A DNA stretch of 20,129 bases from a virus (Duplodnaviria; Heunggongvirae; Uroviricota; Caudoviricetes): the IMG/VR virus record IMGVR_UViG_2534681762_000006. One strand, 5' to 3'. Below are positions 1 to 20,129 of the stretch, piece by piece (the stretch's first letter is position 1; each line of letters begins with the position of its first letter). Made by a program: the position numbers and the translations under genes. Under the pieces are notes generated by a model that was not told where the DNA came from, ran no database searches, and saw only the letters and a list, made by a program, of their open reading frames with translations.

Positions 1-88
1 CGTCACCTTCACCAATAAATTCATTAGTTCCGGCCAGCAGATTATAAATTGTTATGGTCCGTGGTTGTTCACTCATTCTGAATGCCAT
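1..88 (-). CDS. tfa: tail fiber assembly protein Tfa, N-terminal 29 codons only (gene runs off the left edge of the window)
   Basis: Minus-strand ATG at 86-88 overlaps the stf stop (TAATG). Hand translation gives [29 protein letters not shown], which matches the N-terminus I remember for lambdoid Tfa proteins. Not in the ORF track because it is truncated by the window edge. Confidence 0.65.
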
Positions 89-3048
89 TATGCAAGCCTC
101 ACAATATAGTTAAATGCGATGTTTTTGACGGTGTTTTCCGCGTTACCAGCAGCGTTAACGGTGATGGTGTGTCCATGTGAACCAATCGCAACGGAGTGCG
201 TGTGTGCACCAATACCGACAGTATGTGCGTGTGCACCTGCAGATGCTGCTGTGCCGGACAGTGAGTGGCTATGGTTACCATCTGTACTGGTATTAGCTAA
301 CGCCCCCGTAGACATACCTACTGAGCCTTGTACACCCCAGGTATTTTGACCTGAGCTTGTATAACCATATTGATAAGTATCTTTAAAAACACTGGGGTTA
401 AATCGACGGCCATCTCTATGGCTGTGATTACCAGCTGCATTCGTGCTGCCACTTAAACTATGGGTATGCGCACCAGTGTTATTCGTGGATTTAGTGCCGT
501 AATCAAACGACGATGTGGTTTTCGTCCCCAAATCAGTACTGGATGCGCTGGCGCTGTGGGTATGCGATTTTATGCCGTCCTGTTCCTGAGACAATACGGC
601 ACGACCACTGGCGGGCTTGCCCTTAATCGTCCAGCCACGCATATCAGGGATCACGCCTGACGGATAAGCAACTGCAAGTTTCGGGTAAGCAGATTTGTCA
701 AAAGTCTGCCCCTGCATCAGGGCATAGCCAGACGGAACGGTATCTGATGGCCACGGGATTGGTGCGCCAGGCGGATAAAACTGCTCTGATGGCGTATAGA
801 GTGAATAAACTGTACCGTCCGTTAACCCTTCCGGCTTATTAGCAGAATATGCTGGTGACGTATGAATCGTCACGCTGGCATTACTGGTATAATCCCATTG
901 AATATTTACACCAGTCGCATAATTTCCGATTGCAACGTAAATATCGTAAGTATCACCAGATGTATTGACCCAGGCAAAATTTGTAAACCCTGTCGATGTG
1001 CGCTGCCATAAAGCACCAGTAATCCCCTTCGGATTACCATTACCTGCACGTAAAACAAGTTCAGATATACCTGCCTGTTGAGGTGACCCCACGTTAAATC
1101 CAGCGCCACCAATCAACGTAATTGAAACAACAGAACTCGCCTGTGGCATGGTTACCGTTGCTAATTTGAACCAACCAGCACCACCGCTGAATGACATTGT
1201 TGTTGAGTTAAGCGTACCAATATCTTTCGGCGTCAGTGTTATATCCGCTGAAAGCGCCTTACCATTCACCTTACGGGCAGAAGGTACCCGACCATTCGCA
1301 TTGTCATTAGCTGCTTTCACTGCTTTCGGTGTCGCAGCAAGCGTTTCAGATGTGCTGTTGGTTGCACTACTGAGCTGGACAATTCCTTTTTGTGCTGTCG
1401 TAGCGTCCTGTGCGGTGTATTTCCCGTTAGCCAGGTCATACGCGGCCTTAACGGCTTTTGGCGTTGCCGCCAGTGACTCGGAAGTGCTGTTAGTCGCACT
1501 GCTGAGCTGAACTATCCCTTTCTGTGCTGTCGTTGCATCCTGTGCGGTGTATTTCCCGTTAGCCAGGTCATACGCGGCCTTAACGGCTTTTGGCGTTGCC
1601 GCCTGTGACTCGGAAGTGCTGTTGGTCGCACTGCTGAGCTGTACTATCCCCTTTTTCGTCGTGCTCGCATCCTCAAGCGCCACGGCGGATGCAATATCCT
1701 CTGCCCGTTTTGCTGCTGTCTCGGCGCGCGTTGCCGCGGATTCCGCCGTACTTTTGCTCTGTGCTGCCGCTGCCGCACTGCCAGCAGCCTCTGTCGCCTT
1801 CGTGGATGCCGTCGTGGCGCTGCCCCTCGCTGCTGACGCCTGTCTGGTCGCCTCATCTTTTGAAGCAGACGCAGATGATGCCGATGACGCCGCCGAACTG
1901 GCGGACGATGCGGCAGCCGTTTTTGAGGATTCTGCGCTGGTTTCCGACGCTTTCGCGTTCGTTTCGGATGTCTTCGCTGCGGAAGCAGACCTCGCTGCTG
2001 CGCTGGCCTGTTCAGTGGCTTCGCCAGCCTTCGTTGTGGCTGTTGAAGCGGATGATGCGGCGCTTTCTGCCGATTTTCCGGCGGCGGTGGCACTGACTGC
2101 TGCCTCCTCTGCCTTAATGGACGCCTCACGGGCCGATGATGCAGCTGCTGTCTCAGAGTCTGCCGCAGCTGAGGCGCTCTGTTCCGCTGCCGTTTCAGAA
2201 GACCTGGCATTCGTCTCGGACGTTTTTGCCGCCTTCACGGAATTTCCTGCCGCCGTTGCCGAGGAGGCTGCACTGCTGGCGCTTGTGGAGGCGTTCGTTT
2301 CTGATGATTTTGCCGCCTCTTTGGAGGCCGCCGCATCTCTGGCTGAAGTGGCGGCTTCTGACGCTTTCGTCGTCGCAGTGGATGCAGAAGTGGCTGCTGA
2401 TTTTTGTGACGCTGCAGCATTCGTTTCTGACGTTTTCGCCGCACCGGCACTGGTGGCCGCCGCGCTTTTTGAGGACTCTGCAGCGGCAGCACTTTTTGAT
2501 GCTTCAGTGGCCTTTGTTGATGCCGTTCCTGCGCTGGAAGACGCCTCCTGAGCCGAAGTCGCGGCCTGTCCGGCTGACGTGCTGGCTGCACGCGCTGAGC
2601 CTGCAGCATCAGTCGCATGGGTTGCCGCCTCACGGGCAGATGTGCCGGCATCACTGGCTGACTTCTTCGCGGCTGCCGTGTTCTGTGCCACCACGGACGC
2701 GTTACGCGCCACCTCTTCCACCATCAGTTCAAAACGGCGCAGAGCCTCCGGACGGGCATCATCCTCCGTCATGGCACCGAGAAAATCATTCAGCGTACCG
2801 GGTCGGGAATCTTCATACACGGTGATGGTCCCGGCATGTGACGGCGGGAATCCTTCCACCAACAGAATAACGCTGTACTGACCGTACTCAACGTCCATGC
2901 TGTAACGCCCGGCTTCATCCGGATTTTCTGAGGCCAGCGTGTTCACCACCACCGAGGTGCTGTTACGTTTTGCTTTCAGCTGGATTGTGCAGTTCTGTAC
3001 CGGTTTTCCTGTGCCGTCTTTCAGTACACCTGAAATCTTTACTGCCAT
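88..3048 (-). CDS. stf: side tail fiber protein Stf (about 986 aa), with a long Ala/Ser/Thr-rich shaft, three tandem 44-aa repeats and a His-rich C-terminal tip
   Basis: ORF 88..3054 (-). N-terminus [26 protein letters not shown] and C-terminus [24 protein letters not shown] match lambda Stf as I recall it. The likely true start is the ATG at 3046-3048; the ORF track begins at an upstream GTG. Confidence 0.9.
1270..1665 (-). repeat. three tandem in-frame 132-bp repeats inside stf, each encoding a 44-aa unit ([43 protein letters not shown])
   Basis: The string tgcggtgtatttcccgttagccaggtcatacgcggccttaacggcttttggcgttgccgcc recurs at about 1411 and 1543, a period of 132 bp. The protein shows three consecutive 44-aa units, the third diverged. 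Confidence 0.85.
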
Positions 3049-3056
3049 ATTCACCC

Positions 3057-3086
3057 CACAAAAAAGCCCGCCTGAACCGGCGGGCT
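3057..3086 (-). terminator. putative intrinsic terminator between lom and stf
   Basis: 8-bp GC-rich stem (3065-3072 pairs with 3079-3086) with a 6-nt loop; on the minus-strand transcript it is followed by UUUUUUGU. It sits just upstream of the stf start and overlaps its RBS region. Confidence 0.55.
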
Positions 3087-3112
3087 GTCATAACACTGTG
3101 TTACCTGGCTAA

Positions 3113-3712
3113 TCAGAACTTATAACCGACACCCACGATGAAACCGTCAGTGCGCCAGTCGCCACTGCCGGAGCCTTCATAAGCAATATCAATGGCCACG
3201 GATTCGGTCGGGTTAAACTGCACGCCAGCTCCCCACGCCAGAGACGTGTTGCTGTGGCGACCGTCATCACTTCCGGTCAGCACGTCGTGCGTTTTCCCCT
3301 TGTTGTCAGTTACGCGGAGATAATCCCCGGAGAAAGTCGACACACGGCTGTAAGCCACACCCGCCATCGCATACGCGCTGAACCATTCATTCACGCGCAC
3401 AGACGGCCCCGCCATTACGCTGAACCAGCGGTTACGAACGGAATCTTCATGCCAGCGAGTATCGCTGTAATGGGTCAGCTGGCGATTCTTGTCTCCTGCA
3501 TAGCTGAATGACGTCACCAGCCCCAGCGTATCCGTAAACTCATAACGGTATTTCACGTTAATCCCGTTCAGATCATCACTGCCGGGAACGTTGGTCCGGG
3601 CATGAAGATACCCCGCGCTCAGCGTGGACTGATGTTCAGACGCCCATGCAGGCGCACCGGATACGGCCAGACAAATGGCTGCGGACAAAATGGCGGCACA
3701 AACTTTACGCAT
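3113..3712 (-). CDS. lom: Lom/Ail-family outer membrane beta-barrel protein (prophage moron)
   Basis: 199-aa ORF with an N-terminal signal peptide (MRKVCAAILSAAICLAVSGAPAWA) and the C-terminus IAYEGSGSGDWRTDGFIVGVGYKF shared with lambda Lom. It occupies the lambda position between J and stf. GAGAGG Shine-Dalgarno upstream of the ATG. Confidence 0.9.
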   Translation of the reverse strand: MRKVCAAILSAAICLAVSGAPAWASEHQSTLSAGYLHARTNVPGSDDLNGINVKYRYEFTDTLGLVTSFSYAGDKNRQLTHYSDTRWHEDSVRNRWFSVMAGPSVRVNEWFSAYAMAGVAYSRVSTFSGDYLRVTDNKGKTHDVLTGSDDGRHSNTSLAWGAGVQFNPTESVAIDIAYEGSGSGDWRTDGFIVGVGYKF

Positions 3713-3760: not shown

Positions 3761-3823
3761 ATTTATTGGGGTTATAAATATTTCAACGAATACTGATGCC
3801 GGAAGCCGCTTTTTTGGTCACAA

Positions 3824-4639
3824 TCACCGTACAGTCGGTGATATTGCCTGCCCCCTGATTGCCTTCTGGAAAATCTTAAACTCCAGAGTGACGCTACCAC
3901 CACCACTAGGCATATCAATAACTGCACTGTAACTACCGGGAATGGCCCCTTTAGTTTCTCTGGATGCGATTAATACGCCGTTTTTGCGAACTTCAAAACC
4001 ATAACCCGTGTATCGCGTGCCTCCCGAGTTATTTCCGCTCCCCGGATCGTCATACGCTATACCGTTAAAAATAATGGGCGGAATAATAATCTGGCGGTCA
4101 AAGTTATGATCATCGCTGATGGTGACTGTAACCGTACCGTCTGGTGTTTCCGTGTTACCCCACGTACCGACTTTTTTCGGGAAGGCTTTTGATACAGCTT
4201 TAACGAAATCCCCTCTGACCTGGGTCGCCTCCAGCATGCCCTTAATCGTACAGTTCTGGTTAATCGTGACATTGTTGAGCGTTCCTGAGTTCGCATTCAC
4301 ACTGCCACTGATATCCGCATTTTTAGCGGTCAGCTTTCCGTCTGATGTCAGGGAAAATACCGGAGGACTGCCACCACTGGTAATGGTGGGGGCCGTCAGG
4401 CGCTTCAGGAACACGTCGTTCATGAATATCTGATTGCCCTGCGCCACAAACATCGGCGTTTCATTCCCGTTTGCCGGGTCAATAAATGCGATACGGTTAG
4501 CGGCAACCAGAAACTGACTCAGTTTGCCTTCCTCCGTGTCCTCCATGCTGAGGCCAATACCCGCGACATAATGTTTGCCGTCTTTGGTCTGCTCAATTTT
4601 GACAGCCCACATGGCATTCCACTTATCGTTGGCGTCCTT
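3824..4639 (-). CDS. J: host specificity protein J, C-terminal receptor-binding segment, lying downstream of an in-frame TGA
   Basis: Same reading frame as ORF 4640..7195. The codons after the TGA read [81 protein letters not shown], which matches the lambda J C-terminal region as I recall it. The last ~150 aa diverge from lambda. Confidence 0.85.
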
Positions 4640-7198
<2,559 letters not shown>

Positions 7199-7255: not shown

Positions 7256-7550
7256 TCAGCGACCAATCACCACAACCTGACCACCGTCCCCTTCGTCTGC
7301 CGTGCTGATCTCCTGAGAAACCACGCGAGACCCCACGCGCATTTCCCCGTACAGAACAGGCAGAACATTGCCCTGGGCAACCATGTTATCCAGTGAGGAG
7401 AAATAGGTGTTCTGCTTACCGTTATCCGTTGTCTGTGTACGGGGAGTTCTGGCTTTCGGTGCCAGCATCTGCGCCACACCACCGAGCACCATACTGGCAC
7501 CGAGAGAAAACAGGATGCCGGTCATACCACCGGTCCCAATGGCTGCCCCC
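7256..7550 (-). CDS. I: tail tip assembly protein I, C-terminal part, in the frame downstream of a 1-nt frameshift
   Basis: ORF 7256..7552 translates to MGAAIGTGGMTGILFSLGASMVLGGVAQMLAPKARTPRTQTTDNGKQNTYFSSLDNMVAQGNVLPVLYGEMRVGSRVVSQEISTADEGDGGQVVVIGR, matching the lambda gpI C-terminus. Confidence 0.85.
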
Positions 7551-7926
7551 ATGCTGCAAGGGTGGCTCCGGCGGTAAAGAATGATCCGGCAATGGCGGCA
7601 GCCCCCAGGACAATCTGGAATACGCCACCTGACTTGGCCCCGGCGACTCTGGGAACAATATGAATCACAGCGCCATCAGGCAGAGTCTCATGTAACTGCG
7701 CCGTTAACCCGGACGTGCTGACGTCCCGCCCGGCAATCCGTACCTGATACCAGCCGTCGCTCAGTTTCTGACGAAACGCCGGGAGCTGTGTGGCCAGTGC
7801 CCGGATGGCTTCAGCCCCCGTTTTCACACGAAGGTCGATGCGGCGACCAAATCGTTGTAAATCCCCGTAAAGGCAGATGCGCGCCATGCCCGGTGACGCC
7901 AGAGGGAGTGTGTGCGTCGCTGCCAT
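7546..7926 (-). CDS. I: tail tip assembly protein I, N-terminal part, in the frame upstream of the frameshift
   Basis: ORF 7522..7926 begins MAATHTLPLASPGMARICLYGDLQRFGRRIDLRVKTGAEAIRALATQLPAF, the lambda gpI N-terminus. After ...TLAAWG it leaves frame and ends in 7 missense codons. The start overlaps the K 3-prime end by 103 nt, as in lambda. Confidence 0.85.
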
Positions 7927-8572: not shown

Positions 8573-9271
8573 TTACTGCGAAAGTTTGTTAATGGAAAGG
8601 AAGCCGCCAAAGTTGCCGACGTTATTGCGGAACTTACAACCGCTCAGGCATTTGCTGCATTTATCCTTCGTGATATCGGACGTTGGCTGGTCATATTCAT
8701 CCGCGACAGCCGGACCGCTATAACCGCACTCGTCACCGCGATAGGTCCAGGTGCAGGTGTTGGCCAGCATGATACGTCCCGGAAAAACAGCGCCATCCGT
8801 TTCCGTCGGCGTGGACAGTACAAAGGAGGCACTCACCGCGCTCAGTTCGCTGCACTGCTCAATGCGCCAGCGGCTGATCACCTCCTGCTCCGGATCGGCG
8901 TAACTGTTTCCGTTGACGAAGTTCACCGCATCCAGAAAACGGGCGTAAACCTTACGCCGGACCACCGTTCCGCCGACCAGACTCTGCATATCTTCCGCCA
9001 TCCCGGTGACCATACCGTACAGGTTAGAAACCGTCAGCGTGGGGCGCGTACTGGTGCCTTTGCCATTCAGTTCAAAACCGCTCCCCTGAATGGGATACGG
9101 CTGATACTGTCGCCCCTGCCAGGTGACCGGCTCACCTTTTTCGTTCTGCTCATTACAGAAAAAATAACGTTCTCCACCGACCTCTGTCAGGTCGATTTCC
9201 CAGAGCACCACGCTGGCCGACTGCTCCGCACGGGTGCATTCATTCAGTGTTTCCTGCCGGATATCCTGCAT
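8573..9271 (-). CDS. L: tail tip assembly protein L
   Basis: 232 aa, the same length as lambda gpL. Starts MQDIRQETLNECTRAEQSASVVLWEIDLTEVGGERYFFCNEQNEKGEPVTWQGRQYQPYPIQGSGFELNGKG. Confidence 0.9.
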   Translation of the reverse strand: MQDIRQETLNECTRAEQSASVVLWEIDLTEVGGERYFFCNEQNEKGEPVTWQGRQYQPYPIQGSGFELNGKGTSTRPTLTVSNLYGMVTGMAEDMQSLVGGTVVRRKVYARFLDAVNFVNGNSYADPEQEVISRWRIEQCSELSAVSASFVLSTPTETDGAVFPGRIMLANTCTWTYRGDECGYSGPAVADEYDQPTSDITKDKCSKCLSGCKFRNNVGNFGGFLSINKLSQ

Positions 9272-9600
9272 CAGTTCACCACCTGTTCAAACTCTGCGCT
9301 GAACTCAACACGCAACATACTGACCCGCGACGACCATTTTGCGCAGGTCACCTTTATCTGCCGCCACTCATAAGGCGGCGTCCACAGAAAGGATTTCCAG
9401 CCCCCGTGCTCTTCCAGAAACGACTCCAGTACCGTGGCCTCCTCACGGGGGACAGAAAGCGTCACGCTGTACGTTTTCAGGTTGGCATTCAGCCCGGCAG
9501 GCGCTCGCTGAGAATAGCCATCACCAAAGCGCACCTTTCTTACAGAAGGGACCGAAGCCACATCCATACCGGGTTTCACTTTCCAGCGGAAGGTCTTCAT
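9271..9600 (-). CDS. M: tail tip assembly protein M
   Basis: 109 aa, the same length as lambda gpM. Its start overlaps the H stop by 4 nt (ATGA) and its stop abuts the L start, as in lambda. Confidence 0.9.
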   Translation of the reverse strand: MKTFRWKVKPGMDVASVPSVRKVRFGDGYSQRAPAGLNANLKTYSVTLSVPREEATVLESFLEEHGGWKSFLWTPPYEWRQIKVTCAKWSSRVSMLRVEFSAEFEQVVN

Positions 9601-10301
9601 CGTCCACCTCCGGAGAACAGGCCACCATCACGCATCTGTGTCTGAATTTCATCACGGGCACCCTTGCGGGCCATGTCATACACCGCCTTCAGAGCAGCCG
9701 GACCTATCTGCCCGTTCGTGCCGTCGTTGTTAATCACCACATGGTTATTCTGCTCAAACGTCCCGGACGCCTGCGACCGGCTGTCTGCCATGCTGCCCGG
9801 TGTACCGACATAACCGCCGGTGGCATAGCCGCGCATCAGCCGGTAAAGATTCCCCACGCCAATCCGGCTGGTTGCCTCCTTCGTGAAGACAAATTCACCA
9901 CGGTGAACAATCCCCGCTGGCTCATATTTGCCGCCGGTTCCCGTAAATCCTCCGGTTGCAAAATGGAATTTCGCCGCAGCGGCCTGAATGGCTGTACCGC
10001 CTGACGCGGATGCGCCGCCACCAACAGCCCCGCCAATGGCGCTGCCGATACTCCCGACAATCCCCACCATTGCCTGCTTAAGCAGAATTTCTGTCATCAT
10101 GGACAGCACGGAACGGGTGAAGCTGCGCCAGTTCTGCTCACTGCCGGTCAGCATCGCCGCCATATTCTGTGCAATACCATCAAAGGTCTGCGTGGCTGCA
10201 CTTTTTACCTGCGACATACTGTCCGTGGCGCTCTCTTCCCACTCACTCCAGCCGGACTTCAGGCCTGCCATCCAGCTCCCGCGAAGCTGGTCTTCAGCCG
10301 C
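9597..10301 (-). CDS. H: tail tape measure protein H, C-terminal segment (234 codons) downstream of an in-frame TAG
   Basis: In frame with ORF 10302..12158. It reads AAEDQLRGSWMAGLKSGWSEWEESATDSMSQVKSAATQTFDGIAQNMAAM...RDGGLFSGGGR, matching the lambda gpH C-terminus. Confidence 0.88.
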   Translation of the reverse strand, partial: AAEDQLRGSWMAGLKSGWSEWEESATDSMSQVKSAATQTFDGIAQNMAAMLTGSEQNWRSFTRSVLSMMTEILLKQAMVGIVGSIGSAIGGAVGGGASASGGTAIQAAAAKFHFATGGFTGTGGKYEPAGIVHRGEFVFTKEATSRIGVGNLYRLMRGYATGGYVGTPGSMADSRSQASGTFEQNNHVVINNDGTNGQIGPAALKAVYDMARKGARDEIQTQMRDGGLFSGGGR

Positions 10302-12158
10302 CTAGGTCTTTTTCTGCTCTGACATGACGTTATTCAGCGCCAGCGGATTATCGCCATACTGTTCCTTCAGGCGCTGTTCCGTGGCTTCCCGTTCTGCCTG
10401 CCGGTCAGTCAGCCCCCGGCTTTTCGCATCAATGGCGGCCCGTTTTGCCCGTTGCTGCTGTGCGAATTTATCCGCCTGCTGCGCCAGCGCGTTCAGGCGC
10501 TCCTGATACGTAACCTTGTCGCCAAGTGCAGCCAGCTGGCGTTTGTACTCCAGCGTCTCATCTTTATGCGCCAGCAGGGATTTCTCCTGTGCGGACAGCT
10601 GGCGACGTTGTGCCGCCTCCTCCAGTACCGCGAACTGACTTTCTGCCTTCCACAAATCCCGGCGCTGCTGGCTGATTTTCTCATTCGCTCCGGCATGCTT
10701 CTCCAGCGTCCGGAGTTCTGCCTGAAGCGTCAGCAGGGCAGCATGAGCACTGTCTTCCTGACGATCGCCCGCAGACACCTTCACGCCGGACTGTTTCGGC
10801 TTTTTCAGCGTCGCTTCATAATCCTTTTTCGCCGCCGCCATCAGCGTGTTGTAATCCGCCTGCAGGATTTTCCCGTCTTTCAGTGCCTTGTTCAGTTCTT
10901 CCTGACGGGCGGTATATTTCTCCAGCGGCGTCTGCAGCCGTTCGTAAGCCTTCTGCGCCTCTTCGGTATATTTCAGCCGTGACGCTTCGGTATCGCTCTG
11001 CTGCTGCGCATTTTTGTCCTGTTGAGTCTGCTGCTCAGCCTTCTTTCGGGCGGCTTCAAGCGCAAGACGGGCCTTTTCACGATCATCCCAGTAACGCGCC
11101 CGCGCTTCATCGTTAACAAAATAATCATCCTTGCGCAGATTCCAGATGTCGTCTGCTTTCTTAAACGCAGCCTCTGCCTTAATCAGCATCTCCTGCGCGG
11201 TATCAGGACGACCAATATCCAGCACCGCATCCCACATGGATTTGAATGCCCGTGCTGTCCTGTCTGCCCAGGTTTCCAGCGTGCCCATGTTCTCTTTCAA
11301 GCGTCGGGTCTGGTCATCAAACCCTTTCGTTGCGGCCTCGTTCGCCGCCTGCAATGCCCCGGCTTCATCGCCGGAACGCTGCAACTGAGCAACATACGCA
11401 ATCTGCTCCGCCGTCACGTTATGGAACTGGCGTGCCATCGCCGTCAGCCCCGACGTCGGGTCTGTGGTCAGCTTCCCGAAGGCTTCAGCGACCTTGTCCA
11501 CCTCCACGCCGGATGCAGAGGAGAAACGCGCCACACTCTGGCTGATGGACGCAATCTGAGCCTCACCGCTTACCCCCGCCTTAACCAGTGCGCTGAGTGA
11601 CTCGCTGGTCTGGTTAAACGTCAGCCCTGCCGCCTGCCCGGCTCTGGACAGGACCAGCATACGATCTGCCGTCAGTCCCGCCTGATTGCCGGAAAGGACC
11701 AGCGTTTTGTTGAAATCGGACAGGGTTGAGTTGCCCTGATACCAGGCATACGCCAGCGCTCCGGTCGCCACCGCCAGCGAGGTAGCCCCCACCATCGGCA
11801 GGGTGATCGCACCGGCAAGCCCCCGGAACATGGGGATCATCCCGCCGAAGGAGTCCTTCACCTGACCCCCCTGTTGCAGCAGGATCAGCCACGGACTTTG
11901 CCCGCCTGCAAGCTGCGTGGCCACGTCAGTGAACTGCGCAGGCAGCATACGCATGGCGGCTTTATACTGCCCGACGGAAATTCCCGCTTTCTGTGCAGCC
12001 AGCGCCTGCCGGTTCATCGACTGTTCAACGACTGCCGCTGTTTTTTTCGCATCACTTTCCGTACCGGAAAAATGACGCCTGACTCTGGCCATCTGCTCGT
12101 CAAATCTGGCCGCATCCAGACTCAAATCAACGACCAGATCGCCTACCGGTTCAGCCAT
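10302..12158 (-). CDS. H: tail tape measure protein H, N-terminal 618 codons, ending at an in-frame TAG (10302-10304)
   Basis: Starts MAEPVGDLVVDLSLDAARFDEQMARVRRHFSGTESDAKKTAAVVEQS. The segments total 618 + 1 + 234 = 853 codons, exactly the lambda gpH length. The stop sits where I recall Trp in lambda (...MSEQKKT-W-AAEDQL). Confidence 0.9.
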   Translation of the reverse strand: MAEPVGDLVVDLSLDAARFDEQMARVRRHFSGTESDAKKTAAVVEQSMNRQALAAQKAGISVGQYKAAMRMLPAQFTDVATQLAGGQSPWLILLQQGGQVKDSFGGMIPMFRGLAGAITLPMVGATSLAVATGALAYAWYQGNSTLSDFNKTLVLSGNQAGLTADRMLVLSRAGQAAGLTFNQTSESLSALVKAGVSGEAQIASISQSVARFSSASGVEVDKVAEAFGKLTTDPTSGLTAMARQFHNVTAEQIAYVAQLQRSGDEAGALQAANEAATKGFDDQTRRLKENMGTLETWADRTARAFKSMWDAVLDIGRPDTAQEMLIKAEAAFKKADDIWNLRKDDYFVNDEARARYWDDREKARLALEAARKKAEQQTQQDKNAQQQSDTEASRLKYTEEAQKAYERLQTPLEKYTARQEELNKALKDGKILQADYNTLMAAAKKDYEATLKKPKQSGVKVSAGDRQEDSAHAALLTLQAELRTLEKHAGANEKISQQRRDLWKAESQFAVLEEAAQRRQLSAQEKSLLAHKDETLEYKRQLAALGDKVTYQERLNALAQQADKFAQQQRAKRAAIDAKSRGLTDRQAEREATEQRLKEQYGDNPLALNNVMSEQKKT

Positions 12159-12585
12159 ACCGGACTCCTCCTGCGATCCCTTCTGATACTGTCATCAGCA
12201 TTACGTCATCCTCCGTCATGTCCGCCACATCCGGGGAAGCGGGGATAACTTCATTCCCGTCCGGGCCAAAGCGGACGCCTCCGGCAAGCCCTGCCGCTTT
12301 CTGCATCAGCACATCATCTTCAGGCTCTTCGTCAGCCTCGCGCCGGTTCAGCAGACTGAAATCCAGCGGATGCATATCCGGATCGCTGAAAAACAGGCTG
12401 AGTACGGTGTACGTCAGCCCGGAAAAGTGCATATCCAGCAGAACATCATGAAAATAATGGGTACTGTAAAAGCGGTGCCAGTCGGCATACTCCGTGGATG
12501 ACATCCCGGCAAGCATGGCGCGCCAGTCGGGTCGCCCCATCTCACGCGCCAGTTTCAGGGCAAAACTCAGCTCACCGTCGAACAC
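12151..12585 (-). CDS. T: T-frame of the tail assembly chaperone, expressed only as a G-T fusion by programmed -1 frameshifting (the listed start is an ORF-caller artefact)
   Basis: ORF translation (M)FDGELSFALKLAREMGRPDWRAMLAGMSSTEYADWHRFYSTHYFHDVLL matches the lambda T-frame. It overlaps H by 8 nt and G by 19 nt, as in lambda. Confidence 0.85.
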   Translation of the reverse strand: MFDGELSFALKLAREMGRPDWRAMLAGMSSTEYADWHRFYSTHYFHDVLLDMHFSGLTYTVLSLFFSDPDMHPLDFSLLNRREADEEPEDDVLMQKAAGLAGGVRFGPDGNEVIPASPDVADMTEDDVMLMTVSEGIAGGVRYG

Positions 12586-12989
12586 TTTCCCGCAGAAACA
12601 GGCTCTGCTGGCCCGGCGTCATCTGCCTGTTCAGGTGCATCATTCACAACAAACTCAGACATACCGGACAGACGCATTACCACATTTTCAGCCTGAGCAA
12701 TTGCCTCTGTGGGCCAGGTGGTAAGCACTTCCTGCTCAATTTGTTTAACGGCTTCATTCATGGACGGCATCTTTGTCTTCTGCGGATGGCTATGCCACAG
12801 GGACATCGCCACCAGAAAAGCACCGGTTCTGACGAGATCTTCCACGCTCACCTGTCGATTGAGACTGGATCCCGCCTGTTCTGCCTGTCGTTTCAGCAGG
12901 GCGAGATGCTCAATTCGCTGCAGGGCTGACAGTTCAGAAAGCGTGACGCTCACACCGTTATATTCAAATGATTCGGTTTTCAGGAACAT
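12567..12989 (-). CDS. G: tail assembly chaperone G
   Basis: 140 aa, the same length as lambda gpG: MFLKTESFEYNGVSVTLSELSALQRIEHLALLKRQAEQAGS... Confidence 0.9.
   Translation of the reverse strand: MFLKTESFEYNGVSVTLSELSALQRIEHLALLKRQAEQAGSSLNRQVSVEDLVRTGAFLVAMSLWHSHPQKTKMPSMNEAVKQIEQEVLTTWPTEAIAQAENVVMRLSGMSEFVVNDAPEQADDAGPAEPVSAGKCSTVS
12585..12591 (-). other. programmed -1 ribosomal frameshift slippery heptamer G_GGA_AAG (G to G-T fusion)
   Basis: Plus-strand ctttccc at 12585-12591 is GGGAAAG on the minus strand. In the G frame the codons are GCG GGA AAG UGU; after a -1 slip the reading is GGG AAA GUG UUC GAC..., giving the T-frame sequence VFDGELSF. Confidence 0.85.
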
Positions 12990-15536: not shown

Positions 15537-15572
15537 TTACGCCAGTTGTACGGACACGAACTCATCAGGATC
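15537..15572 (-). pseudogene. E: 3-prime remnant of major capsid gene E (last 11 codons DPDEFVSVQLA plus stop), separated from the rest of E by the IS66 insertion
   Basis: Hand translation of the minus strand gives GAT CCT GAT GAG TTC GTG TCC GTA CAA CTG GCG TAA. It is contiguous with the E fragment at 18661.. once the IS and one TSD copy are removed. Confidence 0.85.
15565..15572. repeat. target-site duplication TCAGGATC, left copy
   Basis: Identical 8-mer immediately outside both IS ends. Removing the IS and one copy rebuilds an uninterrupted E sequence (gaactcatcaggatcagccaacag on the plus strand). Confidence 0.9.
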
Positions 15573-15657
15573 GTAACCGTCTCATTTAAACCGTCTTTCG
15601 CCTCCCTTTCCTGTTTCCGATACTAATGTCCATTTTCGCAGTAAAGGGACATTTAAG

Positions 15658-16308
15658 ATGAATGCACGAAAAGCGGTACTGGCAGACAATCCGGAATTGA
15701 TCCTGCGTGTGCTACAACTGAGATTTGACGAGTCACTGTCGTACCCGCGCATTTCTGCGCAGACCGGTATCAGCAAAACCGCCATTTTTTCTCTGGTGAG
15801 GCGATTTCACCAGGTATTCACTGACTGGCCTCTTTCCGGAGAATATTCCTGCGTGCAACTGGCCCGGGCTCTGTTCCCGGGGCGATACCCTTCAGCCCCG
15901 ACAGTGACTCAGCCTGTGAAAACAGAGAAAATCCGCCGGAACCGATTTTCACCGGAGTTTAAATGGAGGCTTGTTCAGCAAACTCTTTTACCCGGTGCCT
16001 GTGTCGCACAAATAGCTCGTGAGAACGGAATCAACGATAACCTGCTCTTTAACTGGCGGCATCTCTGGCGTAACGGCGGCCTGCAGCCGACCGGCGAACA
16101 TGAAACATCGCTACTTCCCGTGACGTTAACTCCGGAGCCGGATAATAAAATCCCGGCACCAGTGCAGATACCTGAACAGATAAATACACCGCCCGACAGT
16201 CTGTGCTGTGAGCTGGTTCTGCCGGCCGGAACTCTCAGGCTGAAAGGTGAACTGACACCGGCGTTATTACAGACACTTATCCGCGAAATGAAAGGGAGCA
16301 GCCACTAA
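15658..16308 (+). CDS. tnpA: IS66-family accessory protein TnpA (Orf1), helix-turn-helix
   Basis: 216-aa ORF, first gene of the IS. Its stop overlaps the tnpB start (ATGA). Contains a transposase-like helix-turn-helix region (RRNRFSPEFKWRLVQQTLLPGACVAQIARENGINDNLLFNWR). Confidence 0.75.
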   Translation: MNARKAVLADNPELILRVLQLRFDESLSYPRISAQTGISKTAIFSLVRRFHQVFTDWPLSGEYSCVQLARALFPGRYPSAPTVTQPVKTEKIRRNRFSPEFKWRLVQQTLLPGACVAQIARENGINDNLLFNWRHLWRNGGLQPTGEHETSLLPVTLTPEPDNKIPAPVQIPEQINTPPDSLCCELVLPAGTLRLKGELTPALLQTLIREMKGSSH

Positions 16309-16655
16309 TGATATCTCTCCCTGCCGGTTCGCGTATCTGGCTGGTTGCCGGTATCACCGACATGCGAAATGGTTTTAACGGCCTGGCATCAAAAGTTCAG
16401 AACGTCCTGAAGGATGACCCGTTCTCCGGGCATCTGTTCATCTTCCGCGGACGCCGGGGTGACCAGATAAAAGTGTTGTGGGCTGACAGTGACGGACTGT
16501 GCCTCTTCACCAAACGCCTGGAGCGGGGCCGCTTCGTCTGGCCGGTTACCCGTGACGGCAAGGTGCACCTTACTCCGGCTCAGTTATCTATGCTTCTTGA
16601 AGGTATCAACTGGAAGCACCCGAAACGAACGGAACGCGCTGGCATCCGCATATAA
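16308..16655 (+). CDS. tnpB: IS66-family protein TnpB (Orf2)
   Basis: 115 aa: MISLPAGSRIWLVAGITDMRNGFNGLASKVQNVLKDDPFSGHLFIFRGRRGDQIKVLWADSDGLCLFTKRLERGRFVWP, the typical IS66 Orf2. Confidence 0.88.
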   Translation: MISLPAGSRIWLVAGITDMRNGFNGLASKVQNVLKDDPFSGHLFIFRGRRGDQIKVLWADSDGLCLFTKRLERGRFVWPVTRDGKVHLTPAQLSMLLEGINWKHPKRTERAGIRI

Positions 16656-16674
16656 CCCGTTGTAAAGTGAGGAT

Positions 16675-18228
16675 ATGGACACCTCACTTGCTCATGAGAA
16701 TGCCCGCCTGCGGGCACTGTTGCAGACGCAACAGGACACCATCCGCCAGATGGCGAAATACAACCGCCTGCTCTCACAGCGGGTGGCGGCTTATGCTTCC
16801 GAAATCAACCGGCTGAAGGCGCTGGTTGCGAAACTGCAGCGCATGCAGTTCGGTAAAAGCTCAGAAAAACTTCGCGCTAAAACCGAACGGCAGATACAGG
16901 AAGCCCAGGAGCGAATCAGCGCACTTCAGGAAGAAATGGCGGAAACGCTGGGTGAGCAATATGACCCGGTACTGCCATCCGCCCTGCGCCAGTCTTCAGC
17001 CCGTAAGCCGTTACCGGCCTCACTTCCCCGTGAAACCCGGGTCATCCGGCCGGAAGAGGAATGCTGCCCGGCCTGTGGTGGTGACCTCAGTCCTCTGGGG
17101 TGTGATGTGTCAGAGCAACTGGAGCTTATCAGCAGCGCTTTTAAGGTTATCGAAACACAACGTCCGAAACTGGCCTGTTGCCGGTGCGACCATATCGTGC
17201 AGGCACCAGTACCTTCAAAACCCATTGCACGCAGTTATGCCGGAGCGGGGCTTCTGGCTCATATCGTCACCGGGAAGTATGCAGACCATCTGCCGTTATA
17301 CCGCCAGTCAGAAATATACCTTCGTCAGGGCGTGGAACTGAGCCGCGCCACGCTGGGGCGCTGGACCGGTGCCGTTGCTGAACTGCTGGAGCCGCTGTAT
17401 GACGTGCTGCGCCAGTATGTGCTGATGCCCGGTAAAGTCCATGCGGATGATATCCCCGTTCCGGTCCAGGAGCCGGGCAGTGGTAAAACAAGAACTGCCC
17501 GGCTGTGGGTCTATGTCCGTGATGACCGTAACGCCGGTTCACAGATGCCCCCGGCGGTCTGGTTCGCGTACAGCCCGGACCGGAAAGGTATCCATCCACA
17601 GAATCACCTGGCCGGTTACAGCGGTGTGCTTCAGGCAGATGCTTACGGTGGTTACCGGGCGTTATACGAATCCGGCAGAATAACGGAAGCCGCGTGTATG
17701 GCCCATGCCCGGAGAAAAATCCACGATGTGCATGCAAGAGTGCCAACCGACATCACCACGGAAGCCCTGCAGCGTATCGGTGAACTGTATGTCATCGAGG
17801 CAGAAGTCCGGGGATGTTCAGCAGAACAGCGTCTGGCAGCAAGAAAAGCCAGAGCGGCTCCACTGATGCAGTCACTGTATGACTGGATACAGGAACAGAT
17901 GAAAACACTGTCGCGTCACTCGGATACGGCAAAAGCGTTCGCATACCTGCTGAAACAGTGGGAGGCCCTGAACGTGTACTGCAGTAATGGCTGGGTGGAA
18001 ATCGACAACAACATCGCAGAGAACGCCTTACGGGGAGTGGCCGTAGGCCGGAGAAACTGGCTCTTCGCGGGTTCCGACAGCGGTGGCGAACATGCGGCGG
18101 TGTTGTACTCGCTGATCGGCACATGCCGTCTGAACAATGTAGAGTCCAGAAAAATGGCTTGCGTTACGTTATTGAGCATATCCAGGACTGGCCGGCAAAC
18201 CGGGTACGCGAATCTGTTGCCCTGGTAA
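16675..18228 (+). CDS. tnpC: IS66-family DDE transposase TnpC, C-terminus frameshifted inside the first unit of the tandem duplication
   Basis: 517-aa ORF with an N-terminal coiled-coil and a CxxC...CxxC zinc-ribbon-like motif (CPACGG...CCRCDH). It ends ...[34 protein letters not shown], whereas the duplicated unit and the second IS copy read ...[37 protein letters not shown](T/S)SQ. Confidence 0.88.
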
Positions 18229-18660
18229 AGTTGATCTGACTTCTCAGTAAATATCAATACGGTTCTGGCGAGCCGCTTACAGATGAAAACACTGTCGCGT
18301 CACTCGGATACGGCAAAAGCGTTCGCATACCTGCTGAAACAGTGGGAGGCCCTGAACGTGTACTGCAGTAATGGCTGGGTGGAAATCGACAACAACATCG
18401 CAGAGAACGCCTTACGGGGAGTGGCCGTAGGCCGGAAAAACTGGCTCTTCGCGGGTTCCGACAGCGGTGGCGAACATGCGGCGGTGTTGTACTCGCTGAT
18501 CGGCACATGCCGTCTGAACAATGTAGAGCCAGAAAAATGGCTGCGTTACGTTATTGAGCATATCCAGGACTGGCCGGCAAACCGGGTACGCGATCTGTTG
18601 CCCTGGAAAGTTGATCTGACTTCTCAGTAAATATCAATACGGTTCTGGCGAGCCGCTTAC
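17897..18660 (+). repeat. direct tandem duplication of the IS66 right end: unit 1 at 17897..18280 (384 bp) and unit 2 at 18281..18660 (380 bp), each ending in the right inverted repeat
   Basis: Unit 2 repeats unit 1 from agatgaaaacactgtcgcgtcactcgg through gagccgcttac. Unit 1 differs by four 1-nt insertions (gagtccag vs gagccag; ggcttgcg vs ggctgcg; gcgaatctg vs gcgatctg; ccctggtaaag vs ccctggaaag) and one substitution (ggagaaactgg vs ggaaaaactgg). Confidence 0.9.
18283..18630 (+). CDS. TnpC C-terminal fragment (115 aa) encoded by duplication unit 2; an intact version of the transposase C-terminus
   Basis: [115 protein letters not shown]. Near-identical to the C-terminus of the second IS copy. 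Confidence 0.7.
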   Translation: MKTLSRHSDTAKAFAYLLKQWEALNVYCSNGWVEIDNNIAENALRGVAVGRKNWLFAGSDSGGEHAAVLYSLIGTCRLNNVEPEKWLRYVIEHIQDWPANRVRDLLPWKVDLTSQ

Positions 18661-18668
18661 TCAGGATC
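18661..18668. repeat. target-site duplication TCAGGATC, right copy
   Basis: See the left copy. 8 bp is the characteristic target-site duplication length for IS66-family elements. Confidence 0.9.
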
Positions 18669-19398
18669 AGCCAACAGCATCAGCGGTGCTGACTGAATCA
18701 TGGTGAACTCACGCGCCGGATCGCCGGTGGTCACCCAGTTTTTCGGGTAGCGGGCAGAGGCGTTAATACCTTCGCGCTGTGCGTCCGCATCCTGAATGCA
18801 GCCATAGGTGCGCAGACCGCGTGCCTGAGTGTTCCCCAGCACCATCGTGTTGTCCGGCAGGAAGTTCTTTTTGACGTCGTTTTCCACGTACTGTCCGGAA
18901 TACACGACGATCGCCGTATCGCCATACATCCCCTTATAGGACACCGCTTCGCCCAGGTCTTTTACCGCTGTCTCCAGCTCGGAATTAGAGCCGCGACGGG
19001 TATCCAGCTTCTCCTTGACGGCTTTGAAGGAACGGAACAGCGCCCAGCCTTTCGGATCAAACACGATGATATTCACCACGCCGCTGGCGTTCAGCGCGTA
19101 GGCTTCGATATCGTCGGTCGGGTCATACGTGGACTTGTCACGCTTGCTCCACTCCGTGCCGCCGGACTGCGTGATGTTGTTCGCCGCACTGCGGCCCATA
19201 TCCACCTCAACCGGATCGAAGGCTTCACCGGTCATGGTGTATTTGCCCTTGAGCACGGCAGAAACTGCCTGCATCTCTTCGACCTGAGCAATGGCCAGCT
19301 CTTCGTCACGCATGTTCTGCAGGATGATGCGACGGCGGCGGTAAGCCGGGTCCGCCAGATTCTGCGGATCTTCATCCGGCAGGCGACGCAGGGTCATC
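18661..19398 (-). pseudogene. E: major capsid protein E, internal fragment (about codons 91-333 of 341), bounded on both sides by IS66 ends
   Basis: ORF 18657..19397 translates to MTLRRLPDEDPQNLADPAYRRRRIILQNMRDEELAIAQVEEMQAVSAVLKGKYTMTGEAFDPVEVDMGRS...MIQSAPLMLLADP, matching lambda gpE from an internal Met. The terminal Glu and TAA stop are created at the IS junction. Confidence 0.88.
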
Positions 19399-20129
19399 GT
19401 AAGCGACTCGTCAGAACCGTATTGATATTTACTGAGAGCTCAGATCAACTTTCCAGGGCAACAGATCGCGTACCCGGTTTGCCGGCCAGTCCTGGATATG
19501 TTCAATGACGTAACGCAGCCACTTTTCTGGCTCCACATTGTTCAGACGGCATGTGCCGATCAGCGAGTACAACACCGCCGCATGTTCACCACCGCTGTCG
19601 GAACCCGCGAACATCCAGTTTTTCCGGCCTACGGCCACTCCCCGTAAGGCGTTCTCTGCGATGTTGTTGTCGATTTCCACCCAGCCATTACTGCAGTACA
19701 CGTTCAGTGCATCCCACTGTTTCAGCAGGTATGCGAACGCTTTTGCCGTATCTGAGTGACGCGACAGTGTTTTCATCTGTTGCTGTATCCAGTCATACAG
19801 TGACTGCATCAGTGGCGCGGCTCTGGCTTTTCTTGCCGCCAGACGCTGTTCTGCTGAACAGCACCGGACCTCTGCCTCGATGGCATACAGTTCACCGATA
19901 CGCTGCAGGGCTTCCGTGGTGATGTAGGTGGGCGCTCTTGCATGCACATCGTGGATTTTTCTCCGGGCATGAGCCATACACGCGGCTTCCGTTATTCTGC
20001 CGGATTCGTATAACGCCCGGTAACCACCGTAAGCATCGGCCTGAAGCACACCGCTGTAACCGGCCAGGTGATTTTGTGGATGGATACCTTTCCGGTCCGG
20101 ACTGTACGCGAACCAGACCGCCGGGGGCA
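19399..20129 (-). mobile_element. second IS66-family copy in inverted orientation, partial (runs off the right edge); its right inverted repeat abuts E at 19399
   Basis: Plus strand at 19399 reads gtaagcgactcgtcagaaccgtattgatatttactgag, the reverse complement of the first copy's right end with 2 mismatches in 38. Internal sequence encodes the TnpC C-terminal half on the minus strand. Confidence 0.85.
19429..20129 (-). CDS. tnpC: IS66-family transposase TnpC, C-terminal portion (5-prime part lies beyond the window)
   Basis: ORF 19429..20049 ((M)[60 protein letters not shown]...KVDLSSQ); the frame stays open upstream to the window edge (...[27 protein letters not shown]). It shows several amino-acid differences from copy 1 (for example VPTDITT vs APTYITT, WEAL vs WDAL, NWLF vs NWMF). 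Confidence 0.85.

What the first reader, a model, noticed from the sequence alone, without database searches (positions are those of the whole stretch)
10271..10310. In-frame amber codon inside tape-measure gene H with exact lambda length preserved
H totals exactly 853 codons, the lambda gpH length, but codon 619 is TAG (10302-10304, inside the plus-strand string cctagg). The downstream 234 codons are still in frame and lambda-like. A tape measure truncated at 618 residues would be expected to give shorter or no tails. As with J, the position matches a Trp in my recollection of lambda H, so both nonsense codons would be G-to-A transitions at TGG.
Basis: partly seen in the sequence, partly recalled or inferred. 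Interest (0 to 1): 0.55.

Follow-up and report, generated by a model that had tools for sequence, protein, structure and literature searches.

The report
Nonsense-killed tape-measure gene, dead prophage
The stop codon inside the lambda-type tail tape-measure gene is real, but it is one of at least six disabling lesions in a decaying prophage of a 1975 clinical E. coli isolate. It arose by the classic C-to-T change at a Dcm methylation site, so it is an ordinary pseudogene and not a special coding feature.

Summary
H lies on the minus strand at 12158..9597, with 853 codons plus a stop. Codon 619 is TAG (10302-10304). Lambda and all close relatives read TGG (Trp) there.

The window is the whole contig AQEJ01000040.1 of enterotoxigenic E. 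coli ThroopD. It is a natural lambda-like prophage, 98.9% identical to lambda in H, not a laboratory amber mutant.

The same prophage also carries:
- TGG->TGA in J
- 1-bp deletions in J and in I
- an IS66-family insertion with an 8-bp target duplication in capsid gene E
- a second IS66 copy that cuts E again

On the plus strand the H change is CCAGG->CTAGG. That is C->T at the inner, Dcm-methylated cytosine, a known 5-methylcytosine deamination hotspot.

The same TAG occurs on three different H haplotypes. One of them differs from an intact allele by this single base, which indicates recurrent mutation. The allele is still very rare: 1 of about 4,325 copies in 5,426 complete E. coli genomes.

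The preserved length only shows that the mutation is recent. The 618-residue product lacks the C-terminal helix that anchors gpH in the tail tip, so no tails are expected. Interest is low.

The parts
9597..12158 (-). Tape-measure gene H (lambda gpH orthologue), a pseudogene: 853 codons plus stop, interrupted at codon 619
   Evidence: Pfam TMP_2 and Tape_meas_lam_C
10302..10304 (-). In-frame amber codon TAG. The ancestral codon is TGG (Trp619), and the mutated base is window 10303
10302..10306 (+). Former Dcm site. Ancestral CCAGG now reads CTAGG, with the inner (methylated) C changed to T
   Evidence: (alignment with L003)
10305..12158 (-). Coding sequence of the 618-residue N-terminal product (GenBank EMW91550.1), stop codon not included. 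It carries only the TMP_2 domain
9597..10271 (-). Residual 224-codon ORF (ATG at H codon 630, GGGAG 4 nt upstream) that encodes the Tape_meas_lam_C domain. Gene finders call it as a separate gene
3783..7195 (-). Tail-tip gene J, a pseudogene. TGG->TGA at codon 852 (4640-4642) and a 1-bp deletion in a T run at 3863
7256..7827 (-). Tail assembly gene I, a pseudogene. A 1-bp deletion at 7545 shortens a C6 run to C5
15573..18660 (+). IS66-family element (tnpA, tnpB and a DDE transposase) inserted near the 3' end of capsid gene E. It is flanked by the 8-bp direct repeat TCAGGATC (15565-15572 and 18661-18668). The right end is duplicated: 18279-18660 repeats 17895-18280
18661..19398 (-). Internal fragment of major capsid gene E (residues 88-333), bounded by IS66 elements on both sides
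19399..20129 (-). End of a second, inverted ISCro1-like IS66 copy that runs off the contig end

Best explanation
The amber codon is a spontaneous inactivating point mutation in the tape-measure gene of a natural, already degenerating lambda-like prophage of ETEC strain ThroopD.

Mechanism, inferred from the sequence context: the ancestral plus-strand CCAGG is a Dcm methylation site. Deamination of the 5-methylcytosine at the inner C gives T. If very-short-patch repair misses the T:G mismatch, it is fixed as CTAGG, which reads TGG->TAG on the coding strand.

Translation then stops after residue 618. The product keeps the N-terminal TMP_2 region but lacks the C-terminal 234 residues, including the helix (818-842) that sits in the tail-tip lumen on the gpI trimer. 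It therefore cannot take part in tail initiation.

Because the prophage is not under selection for virion production, the lesion persists alongside the others (J opal and frameshift, I frameshift, IS66 insertions in E). The exact 853-codon length simply reflects how recent the substitution is.
For: Shown:
- TAG replaces TGG relative to lambda, Evo1 and 2013C-3181.
- The change is CCAGG->CTAGG at the inner C.
- 23 of 26 CCWGG sites in the aligned 15.6 kb are kept, and the other two changes are ordinary divergence. There is no systematic error at methylation motifs.
- An independent assembly has an identical H sequence with the TAG.
- The same prophage has five further disabling lesions.
- Only 1 of about 4,325 copies in 5,426 complete E. 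coli genomes has TAG. NCBI's annotation of that record marks the gene as a pseudogene with an 'internal stop'.
- TAG619 sits on three H haplotypes that are 32-43 nt apart. The L009 allele differs from the intact allele of strain A35 by nt 1856 alone. This points to recurrent mutation at this site.
- Only 3 of 271 possible nonsense substitutions in H are at Dcm-methylated cytosines, and the observed one is among them.

From the literature:
- CCWGG is a G:C->A:T hotspot through 5mC deamination (PMC13250602).
- gpH residues 818-842 form the coiled coil in the tip lumen (PMC10721106).
- ThroopD is a clinical isolate from Dallas, 1975 (PMC4309559).
Against: - The Dcm origin is inferred from context and recurrence. 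It was not measured.
- The matched controls had no statistical power. In complete genomes the counts were TAG619 = 1, TGA619 = 0, and TAG at the Dcm Trp codon 139 = 0.
- Raw reads could not be inspected.
- The two 1-bp deletions lie in homopolymer runs and could be sequencing errors. If so, the lesion count would drop. The IS insertions and the J opal codon would still remain.
- Whether ThroopD carries an amber suppressor tRNA elsewhere in its genome is unknown.
Confidence: 0.9

Rival explanations
1. Sequencing or assembly error: the true sequence is TGG and H is intact.
For: The contig comes from a draft assembly. Two other lesions are 1-bp deletions in homopolymer runs, a typical error type. 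Methylated motifs are known trouble spots for some long-read basecallers (own knowledge).
Against: A separate assembly (GCA_002462765.1) has an identical 2562-nt H with the TAG. The same TAG appears in two further unrelated assemblies. 23 of 26 CCWGG sites are unchanged, so there is no motif-wide error pattern.
Confidence: 0.03
2. Conditional (suppressor-dependent or readthrough-dependent) gene: the UAG is decoded by a host amber suppressor or by natural readthrough, full-length gpH is made, and the prophage can still build tails.
For: The downstream 234 codons are intact and in frame. Amber mutants of lambda tail genes are classically rescued in supE hosts (own knowledge).
Against: There is no tRNA gene in the window. 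The prophage is natural, not a laboratory sus mutant (98.9% identity to lambda). J also carries an opal codon and a frameshift, I carries a frameshift, and E is split by IS66 elements, so amber suppression could not restore function. The stop is not conserved: TGG occurs at 4,324 places against 1 for TAG. The intact downstream frame is what a recent mutation would leave in any case.
Confidence: 0.03
3. Split tape measure or selected truncation: the 618-residue N-terminal fragment and a 224-residue C-terminal fragment act as two polypeptides, or the truncated protein benefits the host. The C-terminal fragment would be made by re-initiation at AUG630, which has a GGGAG 4 nt upstream. The recurrence of TAG619 would then reflect selection and not mutation bias.
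For: An SD-like GGGAG precedes the ATG 30 nt after the stop. The same stop arose on three haplotypes.
Against: The allele is extremely rare and shows no sign of spread. All three carrier prophages have other lesions: E is truncated in L009, and the portal and V genes are frameshifted in OkiPb01695. If selection favoured inactivation, any of 271 nonsense changes or many frameshifts would serve, so exact recurrence at a Dcm cytosine points to mutation bias. No split lambda-type tape measure was found in this work, and none is known to me.
Confidence: 0.02

Closest known systems
Bacteriophage lambda gpH (tail length tape measure protein, NP_040595, 853 aa)
   Same: Gap-free alignment over all 853 codons at 98.9% nucleotide identity. 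Same domains (TMP_2 and Tape_meas_lam_C). Same G-T-H-M-L gene order, and the GGGAAAG slippery site of G-T is retained.
   Different: Codon 619 is TAG where lambda has TGG. There are 27 other substitutions, mostly synonymous. The host prophage is defective.
Cryptic or defective lambdoid prophages of E. coli, with structural genes decayed by IS insertion, nonsense and frameshift mutations
   Same: Several independent inactivating lesions in the head and tail genes, including an IS66 insertion with an 8-bp target duplication. The lom and stf genes remain intact.
   Different: Decay is still at an early stage. Most tail genes are full length and 95-100% identical to functional relatives.
5-methylcytosine deamination hotspots at Dcm sites (CCWGG), including the classic lacI amber hotspots
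   Same: C->T at the inner C of CCAGG creates TAG and the rare CTAG tetranucleotide. It recurs on independent backgrounds (PMC13250602). The lacI precedent is from my own knowledge (Coulondre et al. 1978).
   Different: In this case the hotspot is inferred from natural genomes. It was not measured in a mutation assay, and the frequency controls were uninformative.
Laboratory lambda sus (amber) mutants in tail genes, such as Ham and Jam alleles
   Same: A TGG->TAG nonsense codon in H, which a tRNA suppressor could in principle suppress.
   Different: The background is not laboratory lambda. J carries an opal codon and not an amber one, there are additional frameshifts and IS insertions, and the host is a natural clinical isolate.

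Membership tests
Lambda-type tape measure protein gene (gpH family) | N-terminal TMP_2 domain (PF06791) | tested here: met
   E = 4e-70, residues 54-256 of the 618-aa product
Lambda-type tape measure protein gene (gpH family) | C-terminal Tape_meas_lam_C domain (PF09718) | tested here: met
   E = 2.5e-22, but it is encoded downstream of the TAG
Lambda-type tape measure protein gene (gpH family) | Collinear with lambda H and placed between G-T and M-L | tested here: met
   Gap-free alignment at 98.9% identity, with flanking genes T and M
Lambda-type tape measure protein gene (gpH family) | Uninterrupted reading frame encoding the full-length protein | tested here: not met
   TAG at codon 619. 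It is a pseudogene of the family
Defective (cryptic) lambdoid prophage | Several independent inactivating lesions in essential morphogenesis genes | tested here: met
   H amber, J opal plus a 1-bp deletion, I 1-bp deletion, and E cut twice by IS66 elements
Defective (cryptic) lambdoid prophage | No virions produced on induction | not testable with these tools
   Needs induction of ThroopD followed by EM or a plaque assay
Dcm 5-methylcytosine deamination hotspot mutation | The ancestral sequence is CCWGG and the change is C->T at the inner C | tested here: met
   CCAGG->CTAGG at 10302-10306
Dcm 5-methylcytosine deamination hotspot mutation | Recurrence of the identical change on independent backgrounds | tested here: met
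   Three haplotypes 32-43 nt apart. L009 differs from intact A35 only at nt 1856
Dcm 5-methylcytosine deamination hotspot mutation | Higher frequency than matched changes at unmethylated positions | tested here: inconclusive
   TAG619 = 1, TGA619 = 0, TAG139 = 0 in 5,426 genomes. The counts are too small to decide
Dcm 5-methylcytosine deamination hotspot mutation | The host has an active Dcm methylase | not testable with these tools
   dcm is not in the window. It is near-universal in E. coli (own knowledge)
Suppressor-dependent (sus/amber) conditional phage mutant | An otherwise functional phage whose only defects are amber codons | tested here: not met
   Opal codon in J, frameshifts in I and J, and IS66 insertions in E
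Suppressor-dependent (sus/amber) conditional phage mutant | A cognate suppressor tRNA is available | not testable with these tools
Programmed stop-codon readthrough or recoding | The stop codon is conserved among relatives | tested here: not met
   TGG at 4,324 places against TAG at 1. No exact match in the metagenome or species-representative collections

The most novel reading that the evidence does not exclude
Selection, not mutation bias, drives the recurrence of TAG619. Under this reading lysogens gain from expressing a truncated 618-residue tape measure, perhaps together with a re-initiated 224-residue C-terminal fragment from AUG630. The gain could be superinfection interference or a two-piece tape measure.
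Probability: 0.02. Interest if true: 0.5.

Novelty: already known. Interest (0 to 1): 0.1.

Why it matters
It matters little beyond annotation. H, J and I in this ThroopD prophage should be marked as pseudogenes, and the prophage as defective.

The one point of wider interest is a small natural example of a textbook mutational mechanism. The same Trp-to-amber change at a Dcm site has arisen independently in at least two, and probably three, lambda-like prophages. This shows that prophage decay follows the host's mutational hotspots. It also shows why an in-frame stop with the gene length preserved is not evidence for suppression or recoding.

Tried and rejected
1. Laboratory lambda amber mutant. 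Rejected: H differs from lambda at 28 positions, and the host is a 1975 clinical ETEC isolate.

2. Systematic basecalling error at methylated motifs. Rejected: 23 of 26 CCWGG sites are intact, and an independent assembly carries an identical H.

3. Wide occurrence of the split gene. The 224-aa ORF is listed on 88 contigs. However, nine of the ten places shown are assemblies in which this prophage region is fragmented by frameshifts throughout. Only L009 shows the 618 + 224 pattern.

4. Frequency controls using 45-mers that can only seed on the mutant base. TGA at codon 619 gave 0 hits and TAG at the Dcm Trp codon 139 gave 0 hits. These are too few to test the hotspot statistically. The Dcm Trp codon 297 was not tested, because flanking polymorphisms prevent a haplotype-independent seed.

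5. Exact 31-mer scans for the TAG allele in metagenome contigs and in one genome per species. Both returned nothing.

6. Suppressor tRNA in the window. None was found.

7. A literature search for Dcm amber hotspots returned mostly irrelevant papers. A second search gave a usable source.

Full report
**Observation.** The tape-measure gene H lies on the minus strand at 12158..9597. Its translation has 853 sense positions plus the terminal stop, and one internal stop at codon 619. The plus strand reads cctagg at 10301-10306, so 10302-10304 is TAG on the coding strand. The ORF list shows the two pieces: 10302..12158 (618 aa) and 9597..10271 (224 aa, starting at ATG codon 630).

**Ancestral state.** H aligns without gaps to lambda H (NC_001416 10542-13103) with 28 substitutions. 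One of them is nt 1856 G->A, TGG (Trp619) -> TAG. Strain Evo1 carries the closest allele in 5,426 complete E. coli genomes, with 3 differences. Strain 2013C-3181 is also close. Both read TGG. The parallel statement about J is also correct: lambda J has Trp at codon 852 (EFSKEWKDA) and the window has a stop. That stop is TGA, at 4640-4642.

**Source.**
- The window is the entire 20,129-bp contig AQEJ01000040.1 of GCA_000355115.2.
- The 618-aa product is GenBank EMW91550.1 from E. coli ThroopD.
- ThroopD is an enterotoxigenic clinical isolate from Dallas, 1975 (PMC4309559).
- The prophage is therefore a natural lambda relative. It is mosaic, with per-gene identity to lambda ranging from about 84% to 100%. 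It is not a laboratory sus mutant.

**Context: a decaying prophage.** I compared the window with the collinear prophage of strain 2013C-3181 (15.6 kb, 97.7% identity). That comparison shows exactly two indels, both 1-bp deletions in the window. One is at 3863 in a T run in J. The other is at 7545 in I, where C6 became C5. tblastn with the relative's proteins shows the following:
- H has one stop.
- J has one stop and a terminal frameshift.
- I is split by a frameshift.
- Capsid protein E is present only as residues 88-333.

An IS66-family element (tnpA, tnpB and a DDE transposase; Pfam) occupies 15573-18660. It is flanked by the 8-bp direct repeat TCAGGATC, the hallmark of a true transposition into E. 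A second, inverted ISCro1-like copy starts at 19399 and runs off the contig. No head gene upstream of E is present in the contig. With the capsid gene destroyed and J and I broken, suppressing the amber in H could not restore a viable phage.

**Is it an artefact?**
- An independent assembly (GCA_002462765.1, NKEQ01000071.1) is 100% identical to the window across H, TAG included.
- Its only differences lie in a 112-bp patch of L, near the end of that contig.
- 23 of 26 CCWGG sites in the aligned region are unchanged, so there is no motif-wide basecalling artefact.
- Raw reads could not be examined.

**Mechanism of origin.** On the plus strand the change is CCAGG -> CTAGG, a C->T at the inner cytosine of a Dcm site. 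Dcm methylates that cytosine, and 5-methylcytosine deaminates to thymine. CCWGG sites are recognised G:C->A:T hotspots in E. coli (PMC13250602). The lacI amber hotspots are the classic case (own knowledge).

H contains 12 Trp codons, and three of them overlap CCWGG. Of 271 single substitutions that would create a stop in H, only three are 5mC-type changes. The observed one is among them.

**Recurrence.**
- A 45-mer that can only seed through the mutant base finds TAG at 1 place in 5,426 complete genomes. That genome is OkiPb01695, where NCBI's annotation of the record marks H as a pseudogene with an 'internal stop'. Its portal and V genes are frameshifted.
- The TGG version is found at 4,324 places in 3,142 genomes.
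- A third carrier is L009 (GCA_000352565.1), found through the 224-aa ORF.
- The three TAG-bearing haplotypes (ThroopD type, L009, OkiPb01695) differ from each other at 32-43 positions, including sites within 30-230 nt of the stop.
- The L009 allele differs from the intact allele of strain A35 at nt 1856 alone.

The simplest reading is at least two, and probably three, independent hits at the same methylated cytosine. Each is in a prophage with other defects, and none has spread.

The matched controls gave zero hits (TGA at codon 619; TAG at the Dcm Trp codon 139). Exact scans of the metagenome and species-representative collections also gave nothing. These counts are too small to test the hotspot quantitatively.

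**Consequence for the protein.**
- The 618-residue product keeps the TMP_2 domain and loses Tape_meas_lam_C.
- In the lambda virion, gpH is a trimer. Residues 818-842 form a coiled coil in the tail-tip lumen, seated on the gpI trimer (PMC10721106).
- A protein without this end cannot be built into the tip complex that initiates tail assembly, so the expected phenotype is no tails. This is an inference. Shorter tails come from in-frame internal deletions (own knowledge).
- There is no tRNA gene in the window.

**Why the length is preserved.** Downstream of the stop, the window differs from Evo1 at two positions only. At one of them Evo1 is the odd one out. The other is a synonymous polymorphism shared with other alleles. 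There has been no time for further decay, so the intact downstream frame says nothing about selection or suppression.

**Comparison and verdict.** By sequence, domains and synteny the gene belongs to the lambda gpH family, but it fails the uninterrupted-frame criterion. It is a pseudogene in a defective lambdoid prophage. It is neither a sus-type conditional mutant nor a recoding site, because the defining features of both were tested and not met.

The feature is real but ordinary. The only mildly instructive aspect is the recurrent Dcm-site origin. Interest is 0.1, and the novelty category is 'already known'.

Noticed in passing
window 15565-18668: The IS66-family element in capsid gene E has a clean 8-bp target duplication (TCAGGATC). 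It also carries an internal tandem duplication of its right end: 18279-18660 repeats 17895-18280 at about 98.7% identity. At 3,088 bp the element is longer than I would expect for this family (own knowledge).
   Followed up: partly
window 19399-20129: A second IS66 copy, 99.7% identical to ISCro1 of strain 2013C-3181, lies in inverted orientation. It cuts E at residue 88 and ends the contig. The E fragment is therefore bracketed by two IS66 elements, so an IS-mediated deletion or inversion of the head genes is possible.
   Followed up: partly
window 4640-4642, 3863 and 7545: J has TGG->TGA at codon 852, which is not at a Dcm site, and a 1-bp deletion in a T run. I has a 1-bp deletion in a C6 run. 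The two deletions are in homopolymers and could be sequencing errors.
   Followed up: partly
window 88-3712: The side tail fibre gene stf (986-988 codons) and the outer-membrane gene lom are intact, and lom is 100% identical to that of strain 2013C-3181, while the neighbouring tail genes are broken. Lom-type genes are expressed from prophages (own knowledge), which would fit with its retention.
   Followed up: no
window 12567-12989: The tail chaperone gene G is only about 89% identical to every relative examined, although the flanking T and H genes are above 99% identical to Evo1. This looks like a mosaic patch. The G-T slippery heptamer GGGAAAG is retained at 12585-12591 on the minus strand.
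   Followed up: partly
L009 (GCA_000352565.1 KB733071.1) 390-3213: In this other TAG619 carrier, the truncated E gene is preceded by a second capsid-E-like gene, a head-decoration-like gene, an AlpA-family gene and a Nu1-like small terminase gene. The set resembles a capsid-forming phage satellite (PICI-like) inserted beside or into the prophage.
   Followed up: no
L007, L008 and L010-L016: In these nine of the ten places shown for the 224-aa ORF, the called genes across the prophage region are fragmented throughout. They probably come from unpolished long-read assemblies. Counts of 'split' H genes in protein databases are therefore inflated by assembly errors.
   Followed up: partly
window 8989-9100: All 18 differences between the window and the independent contig NKEQ01000071.1 fall in a 112-bp patch of gene L, near the end of that contig. 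This suggests either a short recombination tract or an assembly chimera with a paralogous prophage.
   Followed up: no
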